In this document: positions 3,398 to 21,500 of the stretch, piece after piece
Position numbering within the stretch: the stretch's first letter is position 1
Layout of the letters: each line of letters begins with the position of its first letter
Assembly: GCA_043743995.1 (NCBI GenBank)
Contig: JAYTVM010000219.1
Location: forward strand, 7,094 to 71,093
Origin: Pirellula sp.
GTDB taxonomy: Bacteria > Planctomycetota > Planctomycetia > Pirellulales > Pirellulaceae
Length of the DNA stretch: 64,000 bases
Reading direction: 5' to 3'
The notes under the pieces: model-generated
Database searches by the model: none
Told to the model about the DNA's origin: nothing
The model's input: the letters and a program-made list of their open reading frames with translations, nothing else
Position numbers and translations under genes: made by a program

Positions 3398-4239
3398 ATG
3401 ACGCAGGATGATCGGCGAACAATTTTGAAACAGGCAGCTGCGGGTATGGCGACTCTCTCGACCCTCAACTGGATGGCTCTGTCAAAGGCAGCGGGAGCAA
3501 ATGAGAAGATCGTTATGGGAGCAATTGGATGCGGTGGTCAAGGGACCGGATTGCTTATGATCTCTGGGTTGGACCTGCTCCGTTTGTTCCGTTCCAACAG
3601 AATCGTCACCACTATTCTTGGTACTGGTGGTACGACTTTGGCACAGGCGACGCGGGGAACGATGGCGTCCATGAAATCGACATCGCGCGTTGGGGGCTTG
3701 GCGTGGAAACTCATCCATCGTGCGTTTCGGCAATGGGTGGTAAACTTTTCTTCGACGACGAGTAACAGTTTCCAGACACCGAGTTTGTTGTGTTTGACTA
3801 TCCCGGCAGCGGCAAAGTGGGAGAACGCCGGCAACTGTGTTTTGAGATGCGGCTCTGGTCTCGCTATGGCCTCGAAAACATTGACAATGGAAACGCATTT
3901 TACGGCACCAAAGGATGGATGCTGTTAAGTAAGCGGGGCGTCTTGAAAGTCTATGGGGAGGACAAGAAGCTGATTCCAATCGAAGGGGAGCCCGCGAAAA
4001 CCCCAGGGCACCGAAACAATTTCATTGACTCCATCCGAAACAATGTGCAGCCAAACGCTCCGATCGAAGTCGGACACTTGTCTTCGTCGCTGTGCCATCT
4101 TGGCAACATCGCTTCGCGAGTCGGTCGTTCTCTTCGCTTTGATCCAGCCACGGAGAAAATTATCGGCGACGAGGAAGCGAATCGACTCGTGAGTCGTATT
4201 TATCGCAAAGACCATTGGGCGATTCCAAAGGGAGTCTAA
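3398..4239 (+). pseudogene. Gfo/Idh/MocA oxidoreductase pseudogene (Tat signal, internal deletion with frameshift, in-frame stop)
   Basis: ATG 3398 gives DRRTILK (Tat) and IVMGAIGCGGQG; near 3550 the frame shifts directly into YDLWVGPAP...DFGTGDAGNDGVHEIDIARWG; TAA at 3763-3765 interrupts DDE*QFPDT; frame continues to GHLSSSLCHLGNIA...YRKDHW. Confidence 0.85.
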
Positions 4240-9812: not shown

Positions 9813-9855
9813 TCCCCTCGCCCCTTTTTAGGGGAGAGGGGCTGGGGGTGAGGGG
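9813..9855. repeat. CCCTCACCCC-family repeat (reverse copy)
   Basis: CCCCTCGCCCCTTTTTAGGGGAGAGGGGCTGGGGGTGAGGGG; inverted relative to 9963-10008. Confidence 0.8.
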
Positions 9856-9962
9856 TTTTGCACTGTGATCTGATTGGATTTTTGATCGTGGATTGAATGC
9901 ATCGACTCGTTTCAGAAAGTATGACAAAACACTGAACCGGAGGCTTGCAACTCTACGCTCAA

Positions 9963-10008
9963 CCCCTCACCCCCCGACCCCCTCTCCCCCTAAAAAAGGG
10001 GAGAGAGG
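9963..10008. repeat. CCCTCACCCC-family repeat (forward copy)
   Basis: CCCCTCACCCCCCGACCCCCTCTCCCCCTAAAAAAGGGGAGAGAGG. Confidence 0.8.
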
Positions 10009-10171
10009 CACGAGGCCGGTGGAGCCAGGAATTTTCGCAAGTCCACTCCATTCGGCCCAAGGCCATAGGGAGCTAGAAGGACGCGCCGCGGGCCTCGACG
10101 AGCTCGATGGAGAGCTTAATTCCACGCCACCATCCAGACAACCTTAATAGGGGTCTTAGGGGATATCTTTC

Positions 10172-11110: not shown

Positions 11111-11275
11111 CAAAAAATTAAGCTGTGACAAAGTTGAGATAGGCATTTTTTTGGATGCAATGAATTAATGGCCCCAGTTGCCTTTGCTGAATTAGTTGAG
11201 TTCTTTCTCCCGATTCTCGCTGCAAGTATTGGACTAACTATAACAATTCGCACTAATCATCTTCTCCTTACCAAC

Positions 11276-12682
11276 ATGCCTACCATGAAAACGTCTTCCC
11301 TGCTTTGCCTGCTCCTCTGTGTTATTCACTTCGACATTCGACTCTGCGCTTTCGAAAATGAGACTTCGTCCAAGCCCAACATCGTCTATTTTCTGATCGA
11401 CGATTTAGGCTACGCGGACTGTGGTTTTAATGGCGGTACTGACATCCGCACACCAAACATCGACAAGCTTGCGAGAGAGGGTGCGATCCTAAAGTCGTTT
11501 TATGTACAACCTGTCTGTTCGCCGACTCGAGCCGCTTTGATGACGGGACGCTACGCAACGCATACGGGTGTTTACAACGTTGTGCGTCCAGGTGCGCCAT
11601 GGGGATTGCCGCTGGCCGAACGCATTTTGCCGCAAGTGCTGAAAGATGCGGGCTACTCGACCGCGATTTGTGGCAAGTGGCACTTGGGAGAGTTTCAACA
11701 AGCGTACCTACCAACCAAGCGAGGCTTCGATCACCAATATGGGCATATGTTCGGAGCACTCGACTACTTCACCCATATCCGCGATGGGAAATCAGATTGG
11801 TACCGAGACGATTTGCCGATCAAGGAAGAAGGCTACACCACTAACTTAGTTGCGAAGGAAGCGTGCCGTTTGATCAAGGATCGGCCTGCAAACAAACCGA
11901 TGTTCCTCTATGTGCCATTCAATGGAATACATGGCCCGCATCAAGTTCCCGAAAGCTACATGCAACCCTATCAGAACTTGCCTAAGCTCCGACAGACCAT
12001 TGCCGGAATGCTGTCGGCAGTTGACGAAGGCATTGGACAAATTACTGCAGCCTTGGTCGCAGCAGGAATGCGCGATAACACTCTCATTATCTTCTCCAGT
12101 GACAATGGCGGACCAGCACCTGGCAAAGCAACGATGAATACGCCACTTCGAGCGGGTAAAGCAACAGTCTATGAAGGAGGTGTTCGGGTTTGTGCTTTTG
12201 CCAACTGGCCTGGAAGAATCAAAGCGGGCATAACGATTCAGGAGCCGATGCACGCGGTCGACTGGTATCCGACACTCACTAAACTTGTTGGAGCACATCT
12301 CGAACAAAAGCTGCCTCCGGACGGGCTAGACATATGGCCTGTGCTCACGCAAAATGCAAAGTCGCCCCACGATGCTATCTTGCTGCTTGGCAACAAGCCA
12401 GGAGTGTCAGCCATTCGGATGGGAGACTGGAAACTGTTAGTAGGTGCTTCGGACACGGATTCCGAGGAGCAAGTCGACAACCCAAAGAACTCGGGCAAGT
12501 TGGAGCTATATAACCTTGCCGATGATATCTCGGAGTCAAAAAACCTCTCGAATGCCCAACCTGAAAGAGTGAACGCGATGCGGACTCGACTCGAAGCCAT
12601 GCTCAAGAACGCTGTACCGCCGGGGGATTCACTTCGCGACTCAAATGTGGAAACAAAAAAACAAAAAAAAGGAAAGCAATGA
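11276..12682 (+). CDS. Arylsulfatase (S1 family)
   Basis: PNIVYFLIDDLGY, CSPTRAALMTG (CxPxR formylglycine motif), GKWHLG, SSDNGG. Confidence 0.95.
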   Translation: MPTMKTSSLLCLLLCVIHFDIRLCAFENETSSKPNIVYFLIDDLGYADCGFNGGTDIRTPNIDKLAREGAILKSFYVQPVCSPTRAALMTGRYATHTGVYNVVRPGAPWGLPLAERILPQVLKDAGYSTAICGKWHLGEFQQAYLPTKRGFDHQYGHMFGALDYFTHIRDGKSDWYRDDLPIKEEGYTTNLVAKEACRLIKDRPANKPMFLYVPFNGIHGPHQVPESYMQPYQNLPKLRQTIAGMLSAVDEGIGQITAALVAAGMRDNTLIIFSSDNGGPAPGKATMNTPLRAGKATVYEGGVRVCAFANWPGRIKAGITIQEPMHAVDWYPTLTKLVGAHLEQKLPPDGLDIWPVLTQNAKSPHDAILLLGNKPGVSAIRMGDWKLLVGASDTDSEEQVDNPKNSGKLELYNLADDISESKNLSNAQPERVNAMRTRLEAMLKNAVPPGDSLRDSNVETKKQKKGKQ

Positions 12683-14274
12683 GAAACAATCTGCAAACCG
12701 CTGCCATTCGGAACAATTTAAGAATGGTGACTCGTATCGCAATACATTTGTCAACTGTTCTGCTCGTGGCAAGCACTTGCGTACCAGCATCGGCTGATAA
12801 GCCAAGCGACAGACCGAACATAGTCTATATCATCTCAGATGATCTTGGTTATGGCGATCTTGGATGCTATGGTGCGAACATAGTAAAAACGCCGAATCTG
12901 GACAAGCTTGCTGCTCAGGGCTGTCGTTTCACCAATGCTCATTCAACCGCAGCCGTTTGCACACCGACGCGATATGCACTTCTGACGGGACGCTATGCGT
13001 GGCGAGAGCCGAATACTGGAATTGCCCGCGGAGACCAATCGCTACTAATCCAACCTGGCACGACGACGATCGCGTCTGTGCTCAAGACTGCCGGTTACAA
13101 GACTGGCGTTGTCGGCAAATGGCATCTCGGTTTGGGATCGCCTCCCAAAACAGATTACAACGTCGAAATCAAACCCGGGCCTCTCGAAATTGGATTCGAC
13201 TATGCGTTCGTCATTCCAGCGACTGGCGATCGGGTCCCATGTGTGTTTGTCGAAAACCGACAAGTTGTTGGTTATGATCGAACAGATCCCATTGAGGTTA
13301 GTTTTGGGGCGAAGATTGGCAATGAACCAACTGGTGTCGACCCTGATATCAAGCTGAAAATCCAAGGTGGGCCTGGGCACAAGGACACTGTCATCAACGG
13401 CATTCCGCGAATCGGTTTTATGACGGGTGGCAAAGCAGCTCGCTGGGTCGACGAGGACATTGCAGACGTCCTCACGAAGAAAGCCGTTGACTTCATTGAG
13501 ACTAACAAGTCGGCACCGTTTTTCTTGTTTTATTCTACGCATGATATTCACGAACCAATGGTGCCTCATCCGCGTTTCCAGGGAACCAGCGAATGTGGAT
13601 GGCGCGGCGACGTGATCCATCAGCTGGATTGGTCAGTTGGACAGTTGATGGCAGTCTTGGAACGCAATGGACTCACCGAAAACACACTCGTCATTTTCAC
13701 GAGTGACAACGGGGGTGCGATCAAGAACACTTACGATGACGGCACAAATGAACTTCATAGCAAACAGCCGCCCAACGGTGTCCTTCGGGCCAGCAAAGGG
13801 TCGCTCTATGAAGGCGGTCATCGCGTTCCGTTCATTGCCCGATGGCCTGGCAAGATTGCACAAGAGAGTCTTTCGGGCGAGTTGATTGGGCATGTAGATG
13901 CACTGGCCAGCTTTGCAGCCCTTACGGACCAAAAACTCGACGAGCGAGCCGGATCGGACAGTTTCAACGTCCTTCCGTTATGGCTTGGGAAAAAACTGGA
14001 GAAGCCCGTTCGCGATCATCTTGTATTACAGAGCAACTCACCTAACCCATTGGCATTGAGAGAGGGAGACTGGATGTTGATCGAGCGAGCAGGAGCGAAA
14101 CAAAATGGCAAAGCAGGCAAGAAATCTGACAACGCGGAAGGTGTTACTTCAGAGCTCTACAACCTTGCAACCGATCTTAGCCAGACTGACGACGTTGCAA
14201 CAAAAGAGACGGCAAGAGTGAAAGCCATGACCGCACGATTAAAAACCATTCGCGAATCAGGGCGAAGCCGATAG
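12679..14274 (+). CDS. Arylsulfatase (S1 family)
   Basis: PNIVYIISDDLGYGD, CTPTRYALLTGR, GKWHLG, TSDNGG; ATGA overlap with upstream sulfatase. Confidence 0.95.
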   Translation: MRNNLQTAAIRNNLRMVTRIAIHLSTVLLVASTCVPASADKPSDRPNIVYIISDDLGYGDLGCYGANIVKTPNLDKLAAQGCRFTNAHSTAAVCTPTRYALLTGRYAWREPNTGIARGDQSLLIQPGTTTIASVLKTAGYKTGVVGKWHLGLGSPPKTDYNVEIKPGPLEIGFDYAFVIPATGDRVPCVFVENRQVVGYDRTDPIEVSFGAKIGNEPTGVDPDIKLKIQGGPGHKDTVINGIPRIGFMTGGKAARWVDEDIADVLTKKAVDFIETNKSAPFFLFYSTHDIHEPMVPHPRFQGTSECGWRGDVIHQLDWSVGQLMAVLERNGLTENTLVIFTSDNGGAIKNTYDDGTNELHSKQPPNGVLRASKGSLYEGGHRVPFIARWPGKIAQESLSGELIGHVDALASFAALTDQKLDERAGSDSFNVLPLWLGKKLEKPVRDHLVLQSNSPNPLALREGDWMLIERAGAKQNGKAGKKSDNAEGVTSELYNLATDLSQTDDVATKETARVKAMTARLKTIRESGRSR

Positions 14275-14480
14275 GGTGAGCGAAAAGTCCAATTTGGAAC
14301 ATTTCGACATAGATGGAAATCTCTAAGTTTTTGAAACCAATGCAGAGCCCATACACCCGATTTCCAATCATGTAGAGCAAAGAAGAACTTGGAGCACCAA
14401 CGAAAACGTTGGATTTCACGATCTCGAGGAAAGGTCGTAACTTGTTGTCGCCTTGTTTGGAATTATTTGACGGACACCAG

Positions 14481-14567
14481 CAATAATTGTAAATTGGGAC
14501 GCTGAGCGTCAATAATCCCGAATTCGGAACATTATTGCCGCTCAGCGTCTTTAATAAATAGTTATGT
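14481..14567 (+). other. attC-like integron recombination site 1
   Basis: GACGCTGAGCG (14498-14508) / CGCTCAGCGTC (14539-14549) inverted arms with inner CAATAAT/ATTATTG; ends in GTTATGT core (14561-14567) 5 nt before the FRG start. Confidence 0.7.
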
Positions 14568-14571
14568 GCCT

Positions 14572-15405
14572 ATGCGAAGCGTTGAACTGAATTCATGGAC
14601 CGATTTCCCTCAGGCCGTAGCGGACATTCGCGGCGAGTTCGGTACTCGCACTGTTGAGGTCCCCGACAAGGGGCCGGTCACGCTCGACAACCAAATCCTG
14701 TTTCGTGGCGACGCGGACAGTACGTGGACGCTTCAAACAACGCTTGAACGTGCAACCGATTCTCCTATAACCGTGCAGCGTTACCTGCAAAGGGCCGATT
14801 CGTGCGTCAACGAAATCGAATCGGTTACCGGACGTCAGTGGAACCTGCAGCCATATCGTGACATCATAAAGGAAATCGAAATTGTACAGGACTTCATGCG
14901 CGTGCATCTACCACACTACGACTACCTCGTCTACCTGCGGCATCACGGCTTTCCATCTCCGCTGCTTGACTGGACTACATCACCGTTCATCGCGGCGTAC
15001 TTCGCATTTGAACCGTCGAGCGACGCTGATCACTCTGCAGTATTCGCGTTCATCGAAACACCCGAAGGCAGTAAAGGCGGTCGTGGCAACTCCAACATGA
15101 TTCACACGCATGGCCCGTACGTGACAACTCACACCCGGCATTTCGCTCAAAAGGCGTGGTACACAACCGCTACACACTGGAATTCAGATGCAAAAACACA
15201 CACATTCTGTTCCCATCACAACGTCACTCCATCGCTCGTTCCCAAGCAAGACTTGCTCGTCAAAATCACGATTCCCCGCCGTGACCGTATTGCTGCCCTC
15301 AAACAGCTCGACGAGTACAATATCAACCACTACACCCTGTTCAATACTGAAGACGCGTTGATCCGCACCATGGGCCTTCGCGCATTCGATATCGACGGCA
15401 CATAA
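14572..15405 (+). CDS. FRG domain protein (integron gene cassette)
   Basis: ILFRGDADSTW and HHGFPSPLLDWTTSPFIAAYFA; stop codon lies inside ACATAAC, the exact complement of the GTTATGT cassette start. Confidence 0.9.
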   Translation: MRSVELNSWTDFPQAVADIRGEFGTRTVEVPDKGPVTLDNQILFRGDADSTWTLQTTLERATDSPITVQRYLQRADSCVNEIESVTGRQWNLQPYRDIIKEIEIVQDFMRVHLPHYDYLVYLRHHGFPSPLLDWTTSPFIAAYFAFEPSSDADHSAVFAFIETPEGSKGGRGNSNMIHTHGPYVTTHTRHFAQKAWYTTATHWNSDAKTHTFCSHHNVTPSLVPKQDLLVKITIPRRDRIAALKQLDEYNINHYTLFNTEDALIRTMGLRAFDIDGT

Positions 15406-15490
15406 CAATCGGTTCAACCGGAGCCGCGGGCCGCGCGGTTTCTGAAGTCAAAGTTGGTTGGCCGCGGCCCGGTTAACCGAATAGTTAGTC
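15400..15490 (+). other. attC integron recombination site 2
   Basis: ACATAAC...TCGGTTcAACCGGaGCCGCGG / CCGCGGCCCGGTTAACCGA...GTTAGTC; 91 bp with two unpaired bases reading G and T on the bottom strand. Confidence 0.9.
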
Positions 15491-15502
15491 GGCTTTTAAA
15501 TT

Positions 15503-15865
15503 ATGAACACCAATCCACGAGAGAATCACATTGATTACGTCGAGTTCCCGGCGCAGTCCGCGCAATCGTTTGCCTCGGTCAAACGTTTCTACAAGGAGGT
15601 TTTCGGTTGGTCTTTCCAGGACTGGGGTGACGACTACTCAGACACTAAGGACAGTGGCACAACTGCTGGGTTCAGCGCGGCTTCAGCACATCGCCCGCCA
15701 GGAACGTTGGTAGTTTTGTTCACCGTTGATTTGGAGGCGGCGAGAGAGCGCGTCATCAACGCTGGCGGGAAGATCGCGAAGGAGATCATTTCATTTCCAG
15801 GCGGTCGCCGATTTGAATACATCGATCCTGCGGGGAATTGGCTTGGAGTTTGGTCCGACAAGTGA
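15503..15865 (+). CDS. VOC/glyoxalase family protein (gene cassette)
   Basis: IDYVEFPA, FYKEVFGWSF, SFPGGRRFEYIDPAGNWLGVWS. Confidence 0.9.
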   Translation: MNTNPRENHIDYVEFPAQSAQSFASVKRFYKEVFGWSFQDWGDDYSDTKDSGTTAGFSAASAHRPPGTLVVLFTVDLEAARERVINAGGKIAKEIISFPGGRRFEYIDPAGNWLGVWSDK

Positions 15866-15887
15866 ATCTACAATCGCTAAACCCGCC

Positions 15888-15980
15888 GCCAAACCATGCG
15901 CTGCAGCGAACCCGGTCAACGCGCTCTGGTTACAATCCACGCGTCCCGCGGGCAACGTCGCTGAGCTTGGGTCGTTAAGC
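15888..15980 (+). other. attC integron recombination site 3
   Basis: GCCAAAC CATGCGCTGCAGCGAAC ... GTCGCTGAGCTTGGGTC GTTAAGC, 93 bp. Confidence 0.85.
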
Positions 15981-16375
15981 GGAACCGACGAACACGGTGG
16001 TCAAAGAGGAATCGACATAGCTTAGCACGCAACGGATTGCGTTCGACGTAGTGCAAGACGGTCAGAAGATGCTCGTCATCTTCGATCGGGAGGGACGATG
16101 CTCAATAAAGGGCTACTGAGCACCGCTTTTTAAACTTCGCCGGTTAGCCACAATGAACGACAGCAAAATTGCGTATTCCTCGTGCGGTCGGCGCAAACAT
16201 CCGCTTCTCGTTAGTCGTGAGATTCGAATCGGGTAGCTCGGCAGGTGCTAGGCTGAACGTAACGATCCGCTGAGATAAACTCAGCGGCTTTCGACGGGTG
16301 TAGAACCAATACCGTCACTTTGCGACTCACGAATTTTGATTTGTACCCCGGCTGAATTCCTTGGAGATCCAGGCG

Positions 16376-16591
16376 ATGACAACTAACCCAATCTTGGACG
16401 AGATACATGAGGCACGTGCTAAAATTCTTGCCGATTACAATGGAGACGTTCATGCATACGTAGTTGATGCTCGCAAGCGAGCTCTAGCATCTGGACGACG
16501 AATCGTAGAACCAAAGCAACGAACAAAGCATTACATCGAAGTCGCCGATCAGCCGCTTCCTGATGGAGGCGCTTCGGCGGCGACTCGATGA
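16376..16591 (+). CDS. Small hypothetical protein (NPILDEIHEAR-type, often found next to PIN toxins)
   Basis: MTTNPILDEIHEARAKILADYNGDVHAY; its 3' end reads into attC4. Confidence 0.55.
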   Translation: MTTNPILDEIHEARAKILADYNGDVHAYVVDARKRALASGRRIVEPKQRTKHYIEVADQPLPDGGASAATR

Positions 16592-16606
16592 GTGCGGTCG
16601 TGGGGG
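16518..16606 (+). other. attC-like site 4 with degenerate R' core
   Basis: AACGAAC AAAGCATTACATCGAAGTCGCCG / CGGCGACTCGATGAGTGC arms with two unpaired bases; right core reads GTG rather than GTT. Confidence 0.7.
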
Positions 16607-16695
16607 TGGACACTGGCATTCCTGAAGCGTAGCTAACGCGAAGTGCAAGCCGCAAAATAAATCGACGAACCAAGCGTTGCAACCGAGTTCCGGTG

Positions 16696-16756
16696 GCCCT
16701 CACCCCCAGCCCCTCTCCCGCGCGCGGGAGAGGGGTGCCGAAGGCGGGGTGAGGGC
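16696..16756. repeat. CCCTCACCCC-family palindrome
   Basis: GCCCTCACCCC...CCCCTCTCCCGCGCGCGGGAGAGGGG...GGGGTGAGGGC nested inverted repeat. Confidence 0.85.
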
Positions 16757-17040
16757 TTGCTCGCACGTCCAGATGGAATGCGTTATTATGTTGCCACGGG
16801 ATCGAAATCCGGACCCAAATGCACGAGACCTGACGGCGGTTCAAAAGGTCTCTCGATAGAGACCGACACGAGTGAACAAAGTGATGCACCGAAGTCGGCT
16901 CCGGTGCGCGACTAACTTTTTATATGTAGTCTCCGACGACCACAGGCGTTCGTCGCAGCTGGGCGTACTGGACCAAATATTTTGTGTTAAGCTATGAAAA
17001 TAAGTATGTTTTTCTATCCGATAGTTTATGGCCATCGCAA

Positions 17041-18519
17041 TCAAATAATCCCTGCGACCAGCTTGCCGTGGACGTCCGTCAGACGATAACGCCGACCCTG
17101 AAACTTGTAGGTGAGCCTTTCATGATCGATCCCGAGGAGGTGCATCATCGTTGCTTGCAAGTCATGAATGTGAACGCCATCACTGGCGATGTTGTAACCA
17201 AATTCACATGTCTCACCATAAACTGAGCCCGCCCTAATTCCGCCGCCTGCCATCCACATCGTGAAGCACCGTGGGTGATGGTCTCGCCCAAAATTGGCTT
17301 GGATCTTTCCCTGGCAATAGTTCGTCCTTCCAAACTCACCTCCCCATACCACAAGCGTGTCTTCAAGAAGTCCGCAACGCTTAAGATCGCTAACCAATGC
17401 AGCGGCTGGTTGGTCGGTCTCCTTGCAAAGCTTTGGCAATCCACCTGGCAGTCCACCATGGTGGTCCCAATCCTGATGGTAAAGCTGGATGAAGCGAACG
17501 CCTCGTTCAGCCAATCTGCGAGCCATTAAGCAATTCGCTGCGAACGATCCTGGCTTCTCCACGTCGGGACCATAACTATCAAGCGTGCTTTGCGATTCGC
17601 TCGTAAGGTCGGCAACTTCTGGTACACTTGACTGCATCTTGAAAGCCATTTCGTAATGTTCGATTCGATTTTGAATCTCGATATCGTGTGCTTCTAATAG
17701 CTTTTGTTCATGAAGCTCTCGAAGCCGATCTAGCATCAACCGTCGACTTTCTCCACTCACGCCGTCTGGATTGCCCAAATAAAGCACCGGGTCTTTGGCG
17801 GCTCGCAACAATACTCCTTGATGCCGAGTAGGAAGGAAACCGCTTCCCCAGAGATGTGCGCCCAGAGGTTGCCCGCCCTTGTCTTTTGTGATCAATACGA
17901 CAAATGAAGGTAGATTCGCGTTATCTTGGCCAAGTCCGTAACTTAGCCAAGATCCGATACTAGGCCGCCCAGCGATCTGTGTCCCTGTTTGAAAGAATGT
18001 AACGCCCGGCCCATGATTGATGGCTTCCGTAAACATGGAACGAACGACACACAGTTCCCCAGCAATGCTCGCGGTATGAGGCAGCAGCTCGCTGACCCAT
18101 GCTCCTGCTGGTCCGTGTTGCTGAAATTTGAAGGGCGATCCGACCAATGGAAGCGAAGATTGATTTCCTGACATGCCGGTCAATCGTTGCGTTCCACGAA
18201 CGGAATCCGGCAATTGCTCCCCTTGCAGCGTATTCAAGGCTGGCTTGTAGTCAAACAAGTCAAGGTGCGACGGCCCGCCTGACATAAAAAGATAAATCAC
18301 TCGTTTCGCTTTGGGTGCAAAATGCGGCGAACCCAAAACACCGTGGTCCACGGCACTTGGTTTTTCTGCCTCATTCGAGTCCGCCGACAGCATTTCTGCC
18401 AGCGCAATCCCACTTAAACCTAAGCCAGCGCAACCCAATCCGGTTTGACCGATAAAGCTTCGTCGAGATGATTCGGGAGGGTGATTCGTTGGGTCGGTCG
18501 AGTTCAATGATGATTTCAT
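17041..18519 (-). CDS. DUF1501 domain protein (planctomycete, Tat-like signal)
   Basis: SRRSFIG; HFAPKAKRVIYLFMSGGPSHLDLFDYKP, DWDHH, TLVVWGGEFGRT, RLTDVHG. Confidence 0.92.
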   Translation of the reverse strand: MKSSLNSTDPTNHPPESSRRSFIGQTGLGCAGLGLSGIALAEMLSADSNEAEKPSAVDHGVLGSPHFAPKAKRVIYLFMSGGPSHLDLFDYKPALNTLQGEQLPDSVRGTQRLTGMSGNQSSLPLVGSPFKFQQHGPAGAWVSELLPHTASIAGELCVVRSMFTEAINHGPGVTFFQTGTQIAGRPSIGSWLSYGLGQDNANLPSFVVLITKDKGGQPLGAHLWGSGFLPTRHQGVLLRAAKDPVLYLGNPDGVSGESRRLMLDRLRELHEQKLLEAHDIEIQNRIEHYEMAFKMQSSVPEVADLTSESQSTLDSYGPDVEKPGSFAANCLMARRLAERGVRFIQLYHQDWDHHGGLPGGLPKLCKETDQPAAALVSDLKRCGLLEDTLVVWGGEFGRTNYCQGKIQANFGRDHHPRCFTMWMAGGGIRAGSVYGETCEFGYNIASDGVHIHDLQATMMHLLGIDHERLTYKFQGRRYRLTDVHGKLVAGII

Positions 18520-18542
18520 AAAGAATCGAGAATTGTGAGAGG

Positions 18543-21500
18543 TTATCGTTTCACAACGCAAAAGTCATGATTGAGCAAAGCTTGCGCGAGTATGGTCACA
18601 GCGGCCGCTTCAGGTATGGGAATCTCCTTGTCGCGTGCTGAATTGCCGATCTTCAATAGTAACTCTGCGTCCGATGGATGGGCGCGAAAATGTAGCAACT
18701 GCTCTTGATAAAGGCGTCCGAGTATTTCCAACTCCTTTTGACTTGGTGGTTGGCTCAAGCAAAGCAGACATCCATTCTCGATCATCTTAGCCACGTCACC
18801 ATGACATTCTCGATGCATCTTTTCACCACAAACGCGAGCGGCTTCAACAAACTGAATTCCATTGAGCAACACCAAGGCCTGAAGCGGCGAGTCCGTTCGT
18901 TCCCTTTTCGCAGTGCAGACTTGCCGGCGCGGCGCATCGAAAGCAACCATCGCTGGCGGCGGGCCAGTTCGCCGCCAATTTGTGTAAAGGCTCCTTCGGT
19001 AGACCGAATCATCGTTGCTCGTCTTAACCGGCTTGAACGACTCAGCCATTTCGTAGGGATTCACTGGCGGGCCACCCATCTTTCGATTCAGTAACCCCGA
19101 TGTGGCCAGGACGTTGTCACGAATCATCTCTGCCGGCAATCGAAAGCGTGGTCCACGAGCCAGCCATTCGTTGTCAGGATCATCTGCCATGGTTCGTTCA
19201 TCTGCGATGCTCCGTTGCTGATAGGTCTGACTCAATACGATCACTTTGAACAACTTCTTCATGTCCCATCGATTTGCGATCAACTCTGAAGCAAGCCAAT
19301 CGAGGAGTTCTGGATACAGCGGCCTCGCCCCCTGGCTTCCGAAGTCCTCCGAAGTTCGCACTAAACCTCGGCCGAACAGACTCTGCCAAACTCGATTAAC
19401 AGTTACGCGCGCGGTCAGTGGATGCTGCGGATCAGTCAACCATAGAGCCAGTCCAAGACGGTTGTTGGGCGCTCCGTACGGAAACGGTGACAAGGCTTTT
19501 GGCGTCCCAGCAAATACTTCGTCTCTCGGTTGGTTGTACTCGCCTCGAATTAGCGTAAAGGCCTTTTTCGGCTCTGGAAGCTCCCTCATCACCATGATCT
19601 CTTCGGTCGCGTCTGCAACCTTGTTGTAGTCTCCTCTGGCCGTGCGCAAGTCGCCCAAATGCGACTTCCATTCGGTGTTTTGCGTCGCAAGATAATAATC
19701 GAATAGGATTTCCCGGTTCTTGTCGCTCACTTCCGAAGTCGACTTCAATAGAACTTCTATCGCAGCCGTCTCATTGAAAAGATACAGAGACTCAAGCGAA
19801 GTCAATTGACGATCGAATACACGGAATTCATCAATGAGTCCGCCCTTGAATCCTCGGTCTCGAAATCGCTCTCCCAACGCTATGTTGTCACCACCACCAC
19901 CCGTGATCTCTTTCGAGAGTTTGTCTTTGACAACAGTTTTTTTTGCTTCTTGGCCGTCTACCAATATATTGAGCCCTTCGGCCCGACTACTTCCATCCGA
20001 AGTAGCGATAACATGGACCCATTTGTTTAGCGGAATTTTATCTTGCGAGGCGATTGAAATCGCATTTCCCGGCCAGAAGTGGATCAAAGACCATTTGAGT
20101 CGACCGTCTTCAACCAAAAGTTCGTAGCCACGACTGGCCGCATCCGTCCACGCACGTGATCGATGGAAGACCACGGCTCGTTCTTTCTCGTCCGGTGTTT
20201 TCAGCCAAAGAGAAATACTAAACGGTTCATGTCGCGAAAAATTGCCGATCGACAAATCAACAGGATCATCTCCGGTAAACTCGATCGCATTGTTGAACTT
20301 CCCAGGCACAATCTTGTTCTCACCTCGAAGCAGCGCTGGTTTGTCTTGTTTGATCTGATTCGCAAGTTTGTCACCATCCTTTCTATCAAACGAAAATCGC
20401 CCAATCTCGCATTGGGACAATCCCTCATTCAATAACAAAATACTAGTCTCATTGTTCGTAGATGAGCTACGAGAATCAAGCCATGCGTCAAAGGAGTCTC
20501 GAAGACTCGTATTCAGTGTTTTTTGACTAGCTTCTTTTTCCGACACCGTTTTCGCCAAGCTGGCTATTTTTTCCTTTCCATTGGAATCGTTTAACCAAAG
20601 TGTTGGCGTTGGTGGTGATCGTGTGAAGTAGGAGTAAAGGCCAGCTTCGTCGATATTCTGAAACATCGAGAAAAGCTGATAGTATTCTTTTTGGGTAATA
20701 GGATCGAATTTGTGATCGTGGCAGCGAGCGCATTCGAACGTCAGCCCGAGAAACGCAGTCGCAAATGTTTGAACTCGATCGCAAACGTACTCGACACGGT
20801 ATTCTTCTTCGACACTACCCCCCTCGGCCTCTTGTTGATGCAAGCGATTGAATGCGGTCGCAAGGATTTGGTCGTCGGTTGCGTTAGGAATCAAATCACC
20901 GGCAATCTGAAACTTGATGAATTCATCGTAGGGGAGATTGTTATTGAACGCTCGAACAACCCAATCTCGCCACGCCCACATGTCTCGTTCGCGATCCACT
21001 TGGAATCCGTAGCTGTCAGCATAGCGAGCCACGTCCAGCCAATCTGTCGCCATCCGTTCGCCATAGGCCACAGACTCCAGCAATCGATCGACTAAATGTT
21101 CGTAAGCGTTGGCCGAAGAATCGGCGACGAAGTCCGCAATCTCCTTTGGCGATGGAGGAAGTCCCGTGATGTCAAAGCTTAGCCGACGAATCAAGGTCGC
21201 ACGATCAGCGGTTGGCTGTTGACGAAGGCCGCGTTCCGAAAGTGAGTCTTGAACAATGGAGTCAATCGGATGAAAGGTCTTCCCTCCTGGAATCACAACG
21301 GGCCGAAGCGATAAAAAGGACCAATGTCCTTCGTAGATCGCACCTTGTTTGATCCATTGTTCCAAAATTTCAATTTCCCTCACATTCAGAGGCTCGATTT
21401 TCGAAGTCGGGGGGGGCATCCGTTGATCGGGATCGTGACTCCTAACTCGCTTGACAAGTTCGCTTTCCTCTGGTTTTCCGGGCGTAAAAACGTCGGCCGA

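What the first reader, a model, noticed from the sequence alone, without database searches (positions are those of the whole stretch)
14481..16900. Integron cassette array with no integrase (CALIN) embedded between sulfatase genes
Four attC-type palindromes (14481, 15400, 15888, 16518) separate short promoterless plus-strand ORFs. The FRG cassette begins with GTTATGT and ends with ACATAAC, exact complements, with the stop codon inside the latter. attC2 has the canonical extrahelical G and T on the bottom strand. No intI or attI is adjacent. The attC sites belong to different sequence classes, which suggests capture from several sources. The ORF track alone does not show this.
Basis: partly seen in the sequence, partly recalled or inferred. 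Interest (0 to 1): 0.65.

Follow-up and report, generated by a model that had tools for sequence, protein, structure and literature searches.

The report
Integrase-less integron cassette array, decaying
A 2.4-kb stretch of a planctomycete chromosome is a genuine but partly decayed integron gene-cassette array with no integrase next to it (a CALIN), a known kind of element; its first cassette carries a candidate anti-phage gene.

Summary
The main reading holds. I built a covariance model (R1) from 28 attC-like sites elsewhere in the same genome. Searched over the whole 64-kb window, it hits only inside the finding:
- 15398-15492: 71.5 bits
- 16516-16608: 63.4 bits
- 15886-15982: 26.4 bits

The same model finds the attC sites of aadA1, catB8 and aadB in a class 1 integron. 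In a sister species it finds sites directly beside a true intI gene. So these are real attC sites.

The first "attC" (14481) is not supported. It is a bulge-free 19-bp hairpin with no R'' box, overlapping a promoter-like element that recurs at non-integron loci in a relative.

The FRG cassette is intact. Its start GTTATGT (14561, not 14553) is the exact complement of its R'' box ACATAAC. 29 of 32 cassettes elsewhere in this genome show the same signature.

Downstream the array is decaying:
- The VOC cassette matches its own R'' box at only 5 of 7 positions.
- attC4 has GTG in place of GTT.
- attC5 has lost 9 bp of L'.
- One attC is reduced to its 5' half.
- A toxin-like gene is truncated.

Two intact intI genes lie on other contigs; none is on this 76-kb contig. 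This is a new member of a known kind and of modest interest.

The parts
14447..14515 (+). Conserved intergenic element with a promoter-like TTGACG-17-TAAATT (14467-14495). It is not part of an attC.
   Evidence: Matches 84% over 68 nt, plus two shorter copies, at three non-integron loci of sister species G032. One copy lies 30-100 nt upstream of a gene start. Promoter consensus match. No R1 hits in those G032 loci.
14498..14549 (.). 19-bp hairpin with one mismatch, no bulges and a 14-nt loop.
   Evidence: Inverted repeat I1, 95% complementary. DNA fold -22.7 kcal/mol, z -6.0. R1 gives 9.2 bits, E 5.2. No AAC inverse core upstream. No similarity to the attI-like array heads of the genus.
14561..14567 (+). 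GTTATGT, the left recombination junction (G|TTATGT) and start of the FRG cassette.
   Evidence: Exact complement of the cassette's own R'' ACATAAC at 15400-15406. The same signature is seen in 29 of 32 cassettes elsewhere in the genome; P = 0.11 under random pairing.
14572..15405 (+). Cassette 1 gene: FRG-domain protein, 277 aa, a candidate single-gene anti-phage effector.
   Evidence: Pfam PF08867, E 1e-18. PADLOC PDC-S15, E 8e-33, near full length. dN/dS 0.07 against an 81% homologue. The FRG domain is placed in the ADP-ribosyltransferase superfamily as a possible NADase immunity effector (PMC9503650).
15398..15492 (+). attC2, intact. R'' ACATAAC 15400-15406; R' GTTAGTC 15484-15490.
   Evidence: R1 71.5 bits, E 5e-18, all model pairs standard. 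Bottom strand has bulged G and T. 95% copy at C229:3642-3718 in an array.
15503..15865 (+). Cassette 2 gene: glyoxalase/bleomycin-resistance (VOC) fold protein, 120 aa.
   Evidence: Pfam PF00903, E 2e-6. The same gene order sulfatase-sulfatase-FRG-VOC appears on a separately assembled contig of run SRR23617271.
15886..15982 (+). attC3, second subclass. R'' GCCAAAC 15888-15894; R' GTTAAGC 15974-15980. The R and L boxes with two bulges are kept; the inner stem is broken.
   Evidence: R1 26.4 bits, E 6e-5. Related sites at C563:35220-35325 and G013:C893, both with R'' GCCTAAC. The cassette start GTTAGTC matches its own R'' at only 5 of 7 positions.
16327..16386 (+). Last 19 codons of a PIN-like gene that is full length in relatives; truncated here.
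   Evidence: Alignment with G017, G001 and G014 loci: homology starts at about 16330. Frame ...SRILICTPAEFLGDPGDDN*. The relative's 171-aa ORF hits PIN only weakly, 19 bits, below the cut-off.
16376..16591 (+). Cassette 3 gene: 71-aa protein of unknown function, partner of the PIN-like gene in relatives.
   Evidence: Conserved together with its attC in three sister species. dN/dS 0.13-0.21. No family hit.
16516..16608 (+). attC4, main family. R'' AACGAAC 16518-16524; R' is GTGGGGG (16600-16606) instead of GTT..., so it is probably inactive.
   Evidence: R1 63.4 bits, with two R-box pairs non-standard. The homologous attCs in three relatives have GTTCTGG, GTTCGGC and GTTAGCT.
16659..16694 (+). 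Possible 5' half of an attC (R'' GACGAAC, spacer, L'') with no 3' partner.
   Evidence: Weak nhmmer hit to model positions 2-37, E 0.12. Reading of the sequence. Homology to a different cassette starts immediately after it.
16696..16756 (.). REP-like nested palindrome (GCCCTCACCCC...GGGGTGAGGGC) inside the cassette 4 remnant.
   Evidence: Inverted repeats I6 and I8. Nearly invariant in the homologous cassettes of G014 and G002. Related copies at window 9813-9860 and 9960-10012.
16869..16956 (+). attC5, damaged. R'' AGTGAAC 16871-16877; R' GTTCGTC 16948-16954. A 9-bp deletion removes most of L'.
   Evidence: R1 28.5 bits, E 1e-5, with seven non-standard pairs. The homologous attCs in relatives score 62-75 bits and carry the extra ATCGGTGAC.

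Best explanation
Window 14561-16954 is a cluster of integron gene cassettes lying outside any integron platform, that is, a CALIN.

**How the cassettes arose.** Each cassette was made and inserted by an integron integrase. The integrase recombines the folded bottom strand of an attC site at G|TT. This leaves the cassette's first bases (TTnnnn) complementary to its own R'' box.

**What the array holds.**
- An intact FRG-domain cassette. It is a PDC-S15-type candidate anti-phage effector of the ADP-ribosyltransferase superfamily, possibly an NADase.
- A VOC/glyoxalase cassette with slightly mutated boxes.
- The 3' part of a two-gene cassette (PIN-like gene plus 71-aa gene).
- Further remnants.

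**Likely state now (inferred).**
- Two intact IntI proteins encoded on other contigs could still act in trans on attC2 and attC3, which would excise the VOC cassette.
- attC4 (GTG core), attC5 (L' deletion) and the half site are fossils.
- The left edge is not an attC. The array begins at a plain GTT, 11 nt after a strong hairpin and about 65 nt after a promoter-like element that may transcribe the first cassettes.
- Most likely origin: off-platform insertion or translocation of cassettes, followed by mutational decay.

**Shown:** attC identity, cassette boundaries, absence of intI on the contig, decay. **Inferred:** activity in trans, expression, route of origin.
For: **The attC family is real**
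- 28 non-window sites give 93.8% paired cells, and 14 of 18 L-box pairs carry compensatory changes.
- Model R1 hits the window only at four + strand sites in this region.
- R1 finds 51 sites in the genome, mostly in co-oriented arrays on small contigs.
- R1 finds the attC sites of aadA1, catB8 and aadB in a class 1 integron, on the correct strand.
- In sister genome G014, attC sites lie on the opposite strand about 950 bp from the 5' end of the intI match (434 bits), the classical layout.

**Integrases**
- Own intI genes: C218 at 420 bits and C115 at 384 bits, against a cut-off of 265. The C115 protein is 45% identical to IntI1.
- On contig C219 the only tyrosine-recombinase match is Xer-like, 38 bits, about 35 kb away.

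**Cassette evidence**
- Start/R'' complementarity: 29 of 32 cassettes elsewhere; FRG 7 of 7.
- Cassettes 3 and 4, with their attC sites, recur in arrays of sister species with intact sites.
- FRG and the 71-aa ORF are under purifying selection.
- The left junction is present on a separately assembled contig of run SRR23617271.
Against: - IntegronFinder's own attC model was not run; R1 is a genus-derived model.
- attC3 and attC5 are weak (26-28 bits). Searched over the whole genome, attC5 falls to E 0.002 and attC3 does not reach the 0.01 limit.
- The left boundary has no recognisable att site, so FRG cannot be shown to be excisable.
- No empty site was found in relatives: gene order breaks right after the sulfatase pair. 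Insertion versus in-situ decay therefore cannot be decided.
- The right part (16157-17040) rests on this assembly alone.
Confidence: 0.9

Rival explanations
1. It is the remnant of a once complete integron that sat at this locus. On this view intI and attI were deleted or decayed in place, and the hairpin region is what is left of attI/Pc.
For: - Complete sister genome G011 has two large arrays that keep an attI-like head yet have no intI. Loss of intI with retention of the array therefore does happen in this genus.
- The window array is clearly old and decaying.
- A promoter-like element sits where Pc would be.
Against: - No intI pseudogene was found on the contig by a search that reads through stop codons.
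- The left region has no significant similarity to the attI-like heads of G011 or to the G014 integron: alignment scores fall within the shuffled range.
- The promoter-like element recurs at three non-integron loci in G032.
- Only 287 bp lie between the sulfatase stop and the first cassette.
Confidence: 0.15
2. The palindromes are ordinary intergenic hairpins, such as terminators or REP elements, between small genes and have nothing to do with integrons.
For: - The first hairpin (14498-14549) is such a case.
- A REP-like palindrome is present at 16696-16756.
- The bottom-strand folds of attC2-4 are not much more stable than shuffles (z -0.8 to -2.1).
Against: - The sites match a structure-and-sequence model that also recognises class 1 attC sites and sites beside intI.
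- The family shows strong covariation.
- The G|TT cassette-boundary signature is present.
- No hits occur in 48 kb of control DNA from relatives.
Confidence: 0.03
3. Assembly artefact: array fragments were wrongly joined to this chromosomal contig at repeated attC sites of a metagenome-style assembly.
For: - The genome is in 588 contigs.
- Its arrays and intI genes are shattered onto contigs of 1-9 kb.
- attC2 has a 95% copy elsewhere.
Against: - A separately assembled contig of run SRR23617271 carries sulfatase-sulfatase-FRG-VOC through to window 16156.
- By my reading of the alignment, exact matches between attC2 and its copy are under 30 nt, too short to mislead usual k-mer sizes.
- The other attC sites here have no near-identical copy.
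Confidence: 0.04

Closest known systems
[quoted passage not shown] 2016, NAR, PMC4889954)
   Same: - Two or more co-oriented attC sites less than 4 kb apart, with no intI nearby.
- Small: most CALINs have fewer than six sites.
- Cassettes of mostly unknown function.
- The genome encodes IntI elsewhere, as in half of the published cases.
- No intI pseudogene nearby, as in 95% of cases.
   Different: - Nothing categorical.
- Host is a planctomycete.
- The attC family has R' GTTC(T/G)nn rather than GTTRRRY, and usually a bulged C, not G, on the bottom strand. attC2 has the canonical G and T.
- This copy is visibly decaying.
Sedentary chromosomal integron arrays, such as the Vibrio superintegron
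   Same: - Chromosomal location.
- Cassettes of unknown function, a toxin-antitoxin-like pair and a candidate defence gene.
- The same genome and genus hold arrays of tens of cassettes with a family-specific attC.
   Different: - No intI, attI or recognisable Pc at this locus.
- Only 3-5 cassettes.
- The attC sites belong to three subclasses rather than one homogeneous repeat.
Cassettes inserted at genomic attG sites / SALIN (Loot et al., bioRxiv 10.1101/2022.09.11.507474)
   Same: - The left junction is a bare GTT, which fits the GWT consensus, with no att site.
- It lies just downstream of a promoter-like element.
- That paper suggests small CALINs could arise by this route.
   Different: - That work was done with IntI1 in E. 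coli.
- There is no empty site here to prove insertion.
- This locus holds several cassettes and remnants, not a single one.
Class 1 integron attC sites (aadA1, catB8, aadB; 60-bp type)
   Same: Same order R''-spacer-L''(two bulges)-loop-L'-spacer-R'. The bulges fall in the same model columns. These sites are recognised by the planctomycete-derived model at E 4e-6 to 1e-3.
   Different: Those are about 60 nt long with a 3-nt loop. The sites here are 88-97 nt with a loop of about 34 nt. BLAST finds no sequence similarity to any plasmid attC.

Membership tests
integron attC site | Inverse core R'' ending in AAC and core R' starting with GTT, in that order on the cassette strand. | tested here: met
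   - Met: attC2 ACATAAC/GTTAGTC; attC3 GCCAAAC/GTTAAGC; attC5 AGTGAAC/GTTCGTC.
- Not met: attC4 has R' GTGGGGG, and the site at 14481 has no AAC box.
integron attC site | Imperfect L''/L' stem with extrahelical bases on the R''-L'' arm of the bottom strand. | tested here: met
   - attC2: bulged G and T.
- attC3 and attC4: two bulges in the same model columns, reading C and T on the bottom strand.
- Family-wide: 14 of 18 L-box pairs covary.
- The hairpin at 14498-14549 has no bulge.
integron attC site | Recognised by an attC covariance model. | tested here: met
   Own model R1, cross-validated on class 1 attC sites, scores 71.5, 26.4, 63.4 and 28.5 bits at the four sites. The site at 14481 fails at 9.2 bits. 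IntegronFinder's model was not available.
integron attC site | Lies at the 3' end of a co-oriented ORF, and the cassette's first 7 nt are complementary to its own R'' (crossover at G|TT). | tested here: met
   FRG 7 of 7. 29 of 32 cassettes elsewhere in the genome are perfect. VOC 5 of 7; cassettes 3 and 4 match only in the invariant part or less, so they are rearranged.
integron attC site | The site family is physically linked to an integron integrase gene. | tested here: met
   G014:C83 has intI (434 bits) on the - strand, with two R1 sites and ORFs on the + strand starting about 950 bp from the 5' end of the intI match. In the window's own genome the intI contigs are too short to show this.
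integron attC site | Recombined as a folded bottom strand by IntI. | not testable with these tools
   Needs a suicide-conjugation recombination assay.
CALIN | At least two attC sites no more than 4 kb apart, with no intI within 4 kb. | tested here: met
   Four model hits within 1.6 kb. No TIGR02249 match on contig C219 except a 38-bit Xer-like gene about 35 kb away.
complete integron | intI, attI and Pc adjacent to the first cassette. | tested here: not met
   No intI or pseudogene. The left region is not similar to the attI-like heads of the genus. Only a generic promoter-like match is present.
attG-type off-platform insertion | A cassette joined to non-att chromosomal DNA at a GWT, with an empty site in relatives. 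| tested here: inconclusive
   The junction AATAG|TTATGT fits GWT. No syntenic empty site was found among 61 genomes of the genus.

The most novel reading that the evidence does not exclude
The array may have entered at a plain chromosomal GTT immediately 3' of a conserved promoter-like element and a 19-bp hairpin. That would make it a natural attG-type capture site that also supplies transcription, so a planctomycete would be expressing a captured FRG (ART-superfamily) anti-phage cassette from a host promoter. Two arrays in a sister genome also begin at 'hairpin + AT-rich spacer | GTT' heads. Hairpin-adjacent GTTs might therefore be a recurrent, undescribed kind of array entry site in this genus.
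Probability: 0.25. Interest if true: 0.5.

Novelty: new member of a known kind. Interest (0 to 1): 0.3.

Why it matters
- It is a clean, well-bounded example of an integrase-less cassette cluster in Planctomycetota, a phylum little studied for integrons.
- It shows the stages of decay side by side: an intact cassette, point-mutated boxes, a broken core triplet, an L' deletion, a half site and a truncated gene.
- The first cassette is a candidate single-gene phage-defence effector. This fits recent reports that integron cassettes store defence genes.
- The genus context gives material for asking how such arrays persist and move without a resident integrase. One complete sister genome has at least 127 attC sites in five arrays and no intI at all.
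- None of this changes current concepts.

Tried and rejected
- **Rfam** at gathering thresholds finds only a tRNA in the window.
- **BLAST of attC2 against plasmids:** no attC similarity.
- **Site at 14481 as an attC.** Rejected: R1 9.2 bits, no AAC box in either orientation, no bulges, no related copy in the genome.
- **Site at 14481 as an attI remnant.** Rejected on present evidence: no similarity beyond shuffles to three attI-like heads of the genus.
- **Empty site.** DNA and protein searches of 61 genomes of the genus found the sulfatase pair but no shared downstream genes and no attC there.
- **FRG homologues in other phyla** (Verrucomicrobiales, Anaerolineales, Hydrogenedentales MAGs, 46-65% identity). 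No R1 attC lies beside them. Only the 81% planctomycete homologue keeps ACATAAC plus a 5' half attC.
- **GACTAAC at 16910**, the complement of the VOC cassette start. Judged chance: a 7-mer is expected about 0.18 times in 2.9 kb.
- **Minus-strand fragment 15916-16101** resembles the C-terminus of an IS200-type transposase from memory, but Pfam gave nothing.
- **C420 'integrase'** is a recombinase paired with an IS91-like transposase, not IntI.
Full report
**Setting.** The window is C219:7094-71093 of an 8.07-Mb, 588-contig genome with 51.6% G+C. Gene content is planctomycete-like: sulfatases, DUF1501 and a large gene that I take, from memory only, to be of the PSCyt/DUF1553 type. The best FRG homologues come from Planctomycetota MAGs. 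Upstream of the finding lie two co-oriented sulfatase genes (11168-12682 and 12679-14274). Downstream, convergent, lie a DUF1501 gene (17041-18561) and a 1048-aa gene.

**Are the sites attC sites?**
- BLAST and nhmmer seeded from the second palindrome found a 95% copy on contig C229. They also found many weaker relatives on small contigs, always co-oriented and following ORFs.
- I aligned 28 such sites, none from the window. The alignment shows ...AAC, a 3-4-nt spacer, an 18-bp stem with two single-base bulges on the 5' arm, a loop of about 34 nt, the 3' arm, a 4-5-nt spacer, then GTT....
- On the structure I wrote down, 93.8% of cells pair and 14 of 18 stem pairs carry compensatory changes. 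The covariation score is 0.554, against 0.155 in shuffles and under 0.1 for slid partners.
- The covariance model R1 built from this alignment was run over the full window with filters off. Its only significant + strand hits are 15398-15492 (71.5 bits), 16516-16608 (63.4), 16869-16956 (28.5) and 15886-15982 (26.4). The next best elsewhere is 15.8 bits, E 0.06.
- Genome-wide, R1 finds 51 sites, mostly in arrays on contigs of 1-9 kb. It finds none in 48 kb around the best sulfatase matches (orthology unclear) of six sister species.

**Is this family the integron attC?** Three tests say yes.
- R1 finds the attC sites directly 3' of aadA1, catB8 and aadB in the class 1 integron of pPROV275-2NDM, on the cassette strand. 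The two bulges fall in the same model columns.
- In sister genome G014, an intI gene scoring 434 bits (TIGR02249 cut-off 265) lies on one strand. About 950 bp from the 5' end of the intI match, on the other strand, lie ORF-attC-ORF-attC.
- In this genome's arrays outside the window, 29 of 32 cassettes begin with a 7-mer exactly complementary to their own R''. This is the footprint of crossover at G|TT. Random pairing of the same boxes gives this with P = 0.11.

The genome encodes two full-length IntI proteins (420 and 384 bits). One is 45% identical to IntI1 over its whole length, and the other carries the IntI-specific insertion as I recall that motif. There are also fragments and pseudogenes. 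All sit on other contigs.

**Anatomy of the array.**
- *Cassette 1 (14562-15484).* It starts at G|TTATGT and ends with attC2, whose R'' ACATAAC contains the stop codon: 7 of 7 complementarity. Its gene is an FRG-domain protein matching PADLOC's candidate single-gene defence system PDC-S15 nearly end to end (E 8e-33). The FRG domain has been placed in the ADP-ribosyltransferase superfamily as a possible NADase immunity effector (PMC9503650). dN/dS against an 81% homologue is 0.07. That homologue, in another planctomycete MAG, keeps ACATAAC and the 5' half of the same attC.
- *Cassette 2 (15485-15974).* It encodes a 120-aa VOC/glyoxalase-fold protein and ends with attC3. attC3 belongs to a second subclass shared with C563 and G013. 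There the R'' is GCCTAAC; here it is GCCAAAC, and the cassette start is GTTAGTC. The pair matches at 5 of 7 positions, consistent with point mutations after immobilisation.
- *Cassette 3.* It is the 3' part of a two-gene cassette found intact in G001 and G014, and likewise truncated in G017. That cassette has a PIN-like gene (weak Pfam hit) overlapping a 71-aa gene by 11 nt, followed by an attC. Here only the last 19 codons of the first gene remain. The attC (attC4) has GTG where the relatives have GTT.
- *Remainder.* Next comes a possible 5' half-attC (16659-16694, weak). It is fused to the distal part of a further cassette known from G014 and G002. That cassette includes a REP-like palindrome, and its attC (attC5) has lost 9 bp of L' here.

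So the array runs to 16954, 86 nt from the DUF1501 stop. Only its first one or two cassettes are intact units.

**The left edge.** R1 scores it at 9.2 bits. Its 5' part overlaps a 45-68-nt element that recurs at three loci of sister species G032. None of those loci has attC sites, and at one the element lies just upstream of a gene start. The element contains TTGACG-17-TAAATT. The region is not similar to the attI-like heads I found in the genus. The array therefore begins at a non-att GTT, 11 nt after a host hairpin. This fits insertion at a genomic GWT site as described by Loot et al.. It also fits translocation of a multi-cassette circle. Without an empty site I cannot decide: gene order in all relatives breaks right after the sulfatase pair.

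**Mechanism.**
- *Shown:* attC identity, cassette boundaries, absence of intI on the contig, decay of the distal sites.
- *Inferred:* the cassettes were captured by IntI acting on folded bottom strands. IntI encoded elsewhere can still excise the VOC cassette (attC2 x attC3). FRG lacks an upstream attC and would need the bare GTT. attC4, attC5 and the half site are dead. The first genes may be read from the promoter-like element through or past the hairpin.

**Assembly.** A separately assembled contig of run SRR23617271 carries sulfatase-sulfatase-FRG-VOC up to window 16156. The distal 0.9 kb rests on this assembly only.

**Comparison and verdict.** This meets the published definition of a CALIN (Cury et al. 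2016) and adds nothing categorical. It is a new member of a known kind. The observation needs correction on four points: one false attC, one missed attC, the coordinate of GTTATGT, and the downstream neighbour. Interest is modest. It comes mainly from the candidate defence cassette, the non-att left junction beside a promoter-like element, and the genus context of very large integrase-less arrays.

Noticed in passing
G011:C1 (L063-L072), complete genome of the same genus: 127 R1 attC hits (E <= 1e-3) in 158 kb form five arrays at 1.98, 2.29, 2.73, 3.29 and 5.37 Mb. The genome has no intI: the best TIGR02249 hit is 80 bits, Xer-like and far from the arrays. Two arrays start at homologous attI-like heads with GATAAC/CAATAAC repeats and TTGACA. 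Two others start at 'TACAAT...hairpin TTCTCCGGCGC/GCGCCGGAGAA-TTACTA|GTTC'.
   Followed up: partly
window 16696-16756; also 9813-9860 and 9960-10012: REP-like nested palindromes of the type GGGGAGAGGGG...GGGGTGAGGG. The copy inside the cassette remnant is almost invariant across homologous cassettes of two other species, while its flanks are only about 70-77% identical.
   Followed up: partly
window 14447-14515 and G032:C166:9940-10007, C147:21811-21846, C340:6579-6638: A conserved 45-68-nt intergenic element (TTTGGAATTATTTGACGGnCAnCnGCAATAATTGTAAAnTGG) with a sigma-70-like promoter match, at unrelated loci in two species. In the window, two alternative 5' arms (14469-14487 and 14498-14516) can pair with the same 3' arm (14531-14549).
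   Followed up: partly
own genome C420:1505-3672: A 315-aa tyrosine recombinase followed by an IS91-like transposase (motif HPHIHALVPG), inserted at a cassette boundary GTTC inside an array. The same gene pair sits beside the integron integrase of Pseudoalteromonas plasmid pPBSW1 (L044).
   Followed up: partly
own genome C563:35220-36087: A second small integrase-less cluster on a 39.5-kb contig: one attC of the attC3 subclass and one main-family attC (61 bits), with small ORFs between them.
   Followed up: partly
own genome C54:22555-23681; also C368 and C579: intI pseudogenes with in-frame stops. The one on C54 lies about 700 bp from a strong attC (72 bits), so it looks like a decayed integron platform. 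Together with two intact intI genes and a third cut by a contig end, this genome has an unusually large number of integron integrase genes.
   Followed up: no
L027 (G001:C177) 627-1347; L026; L029: A conserved two-gene cassette in sister species: a 171-aa PIN-like protein (Pfam 19 bits, below the cut-off) overlapping a 71-aa protein by 11 nt, followed by an attC. It is probably a toxin-antitoxin-type cassette with the larger gene first.
   Followed up: partly
L020 (Planctomycetota MAG P01_D01_bin.62) about 3940-3950: The 65% FRG homologue there is also preceded by GTTATGT, directly after the upstream gene's stop codon and about 55 nt before its ATG. No R1 attC follows it. This is either chance or an old cassette boundary.
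   Followed up: no
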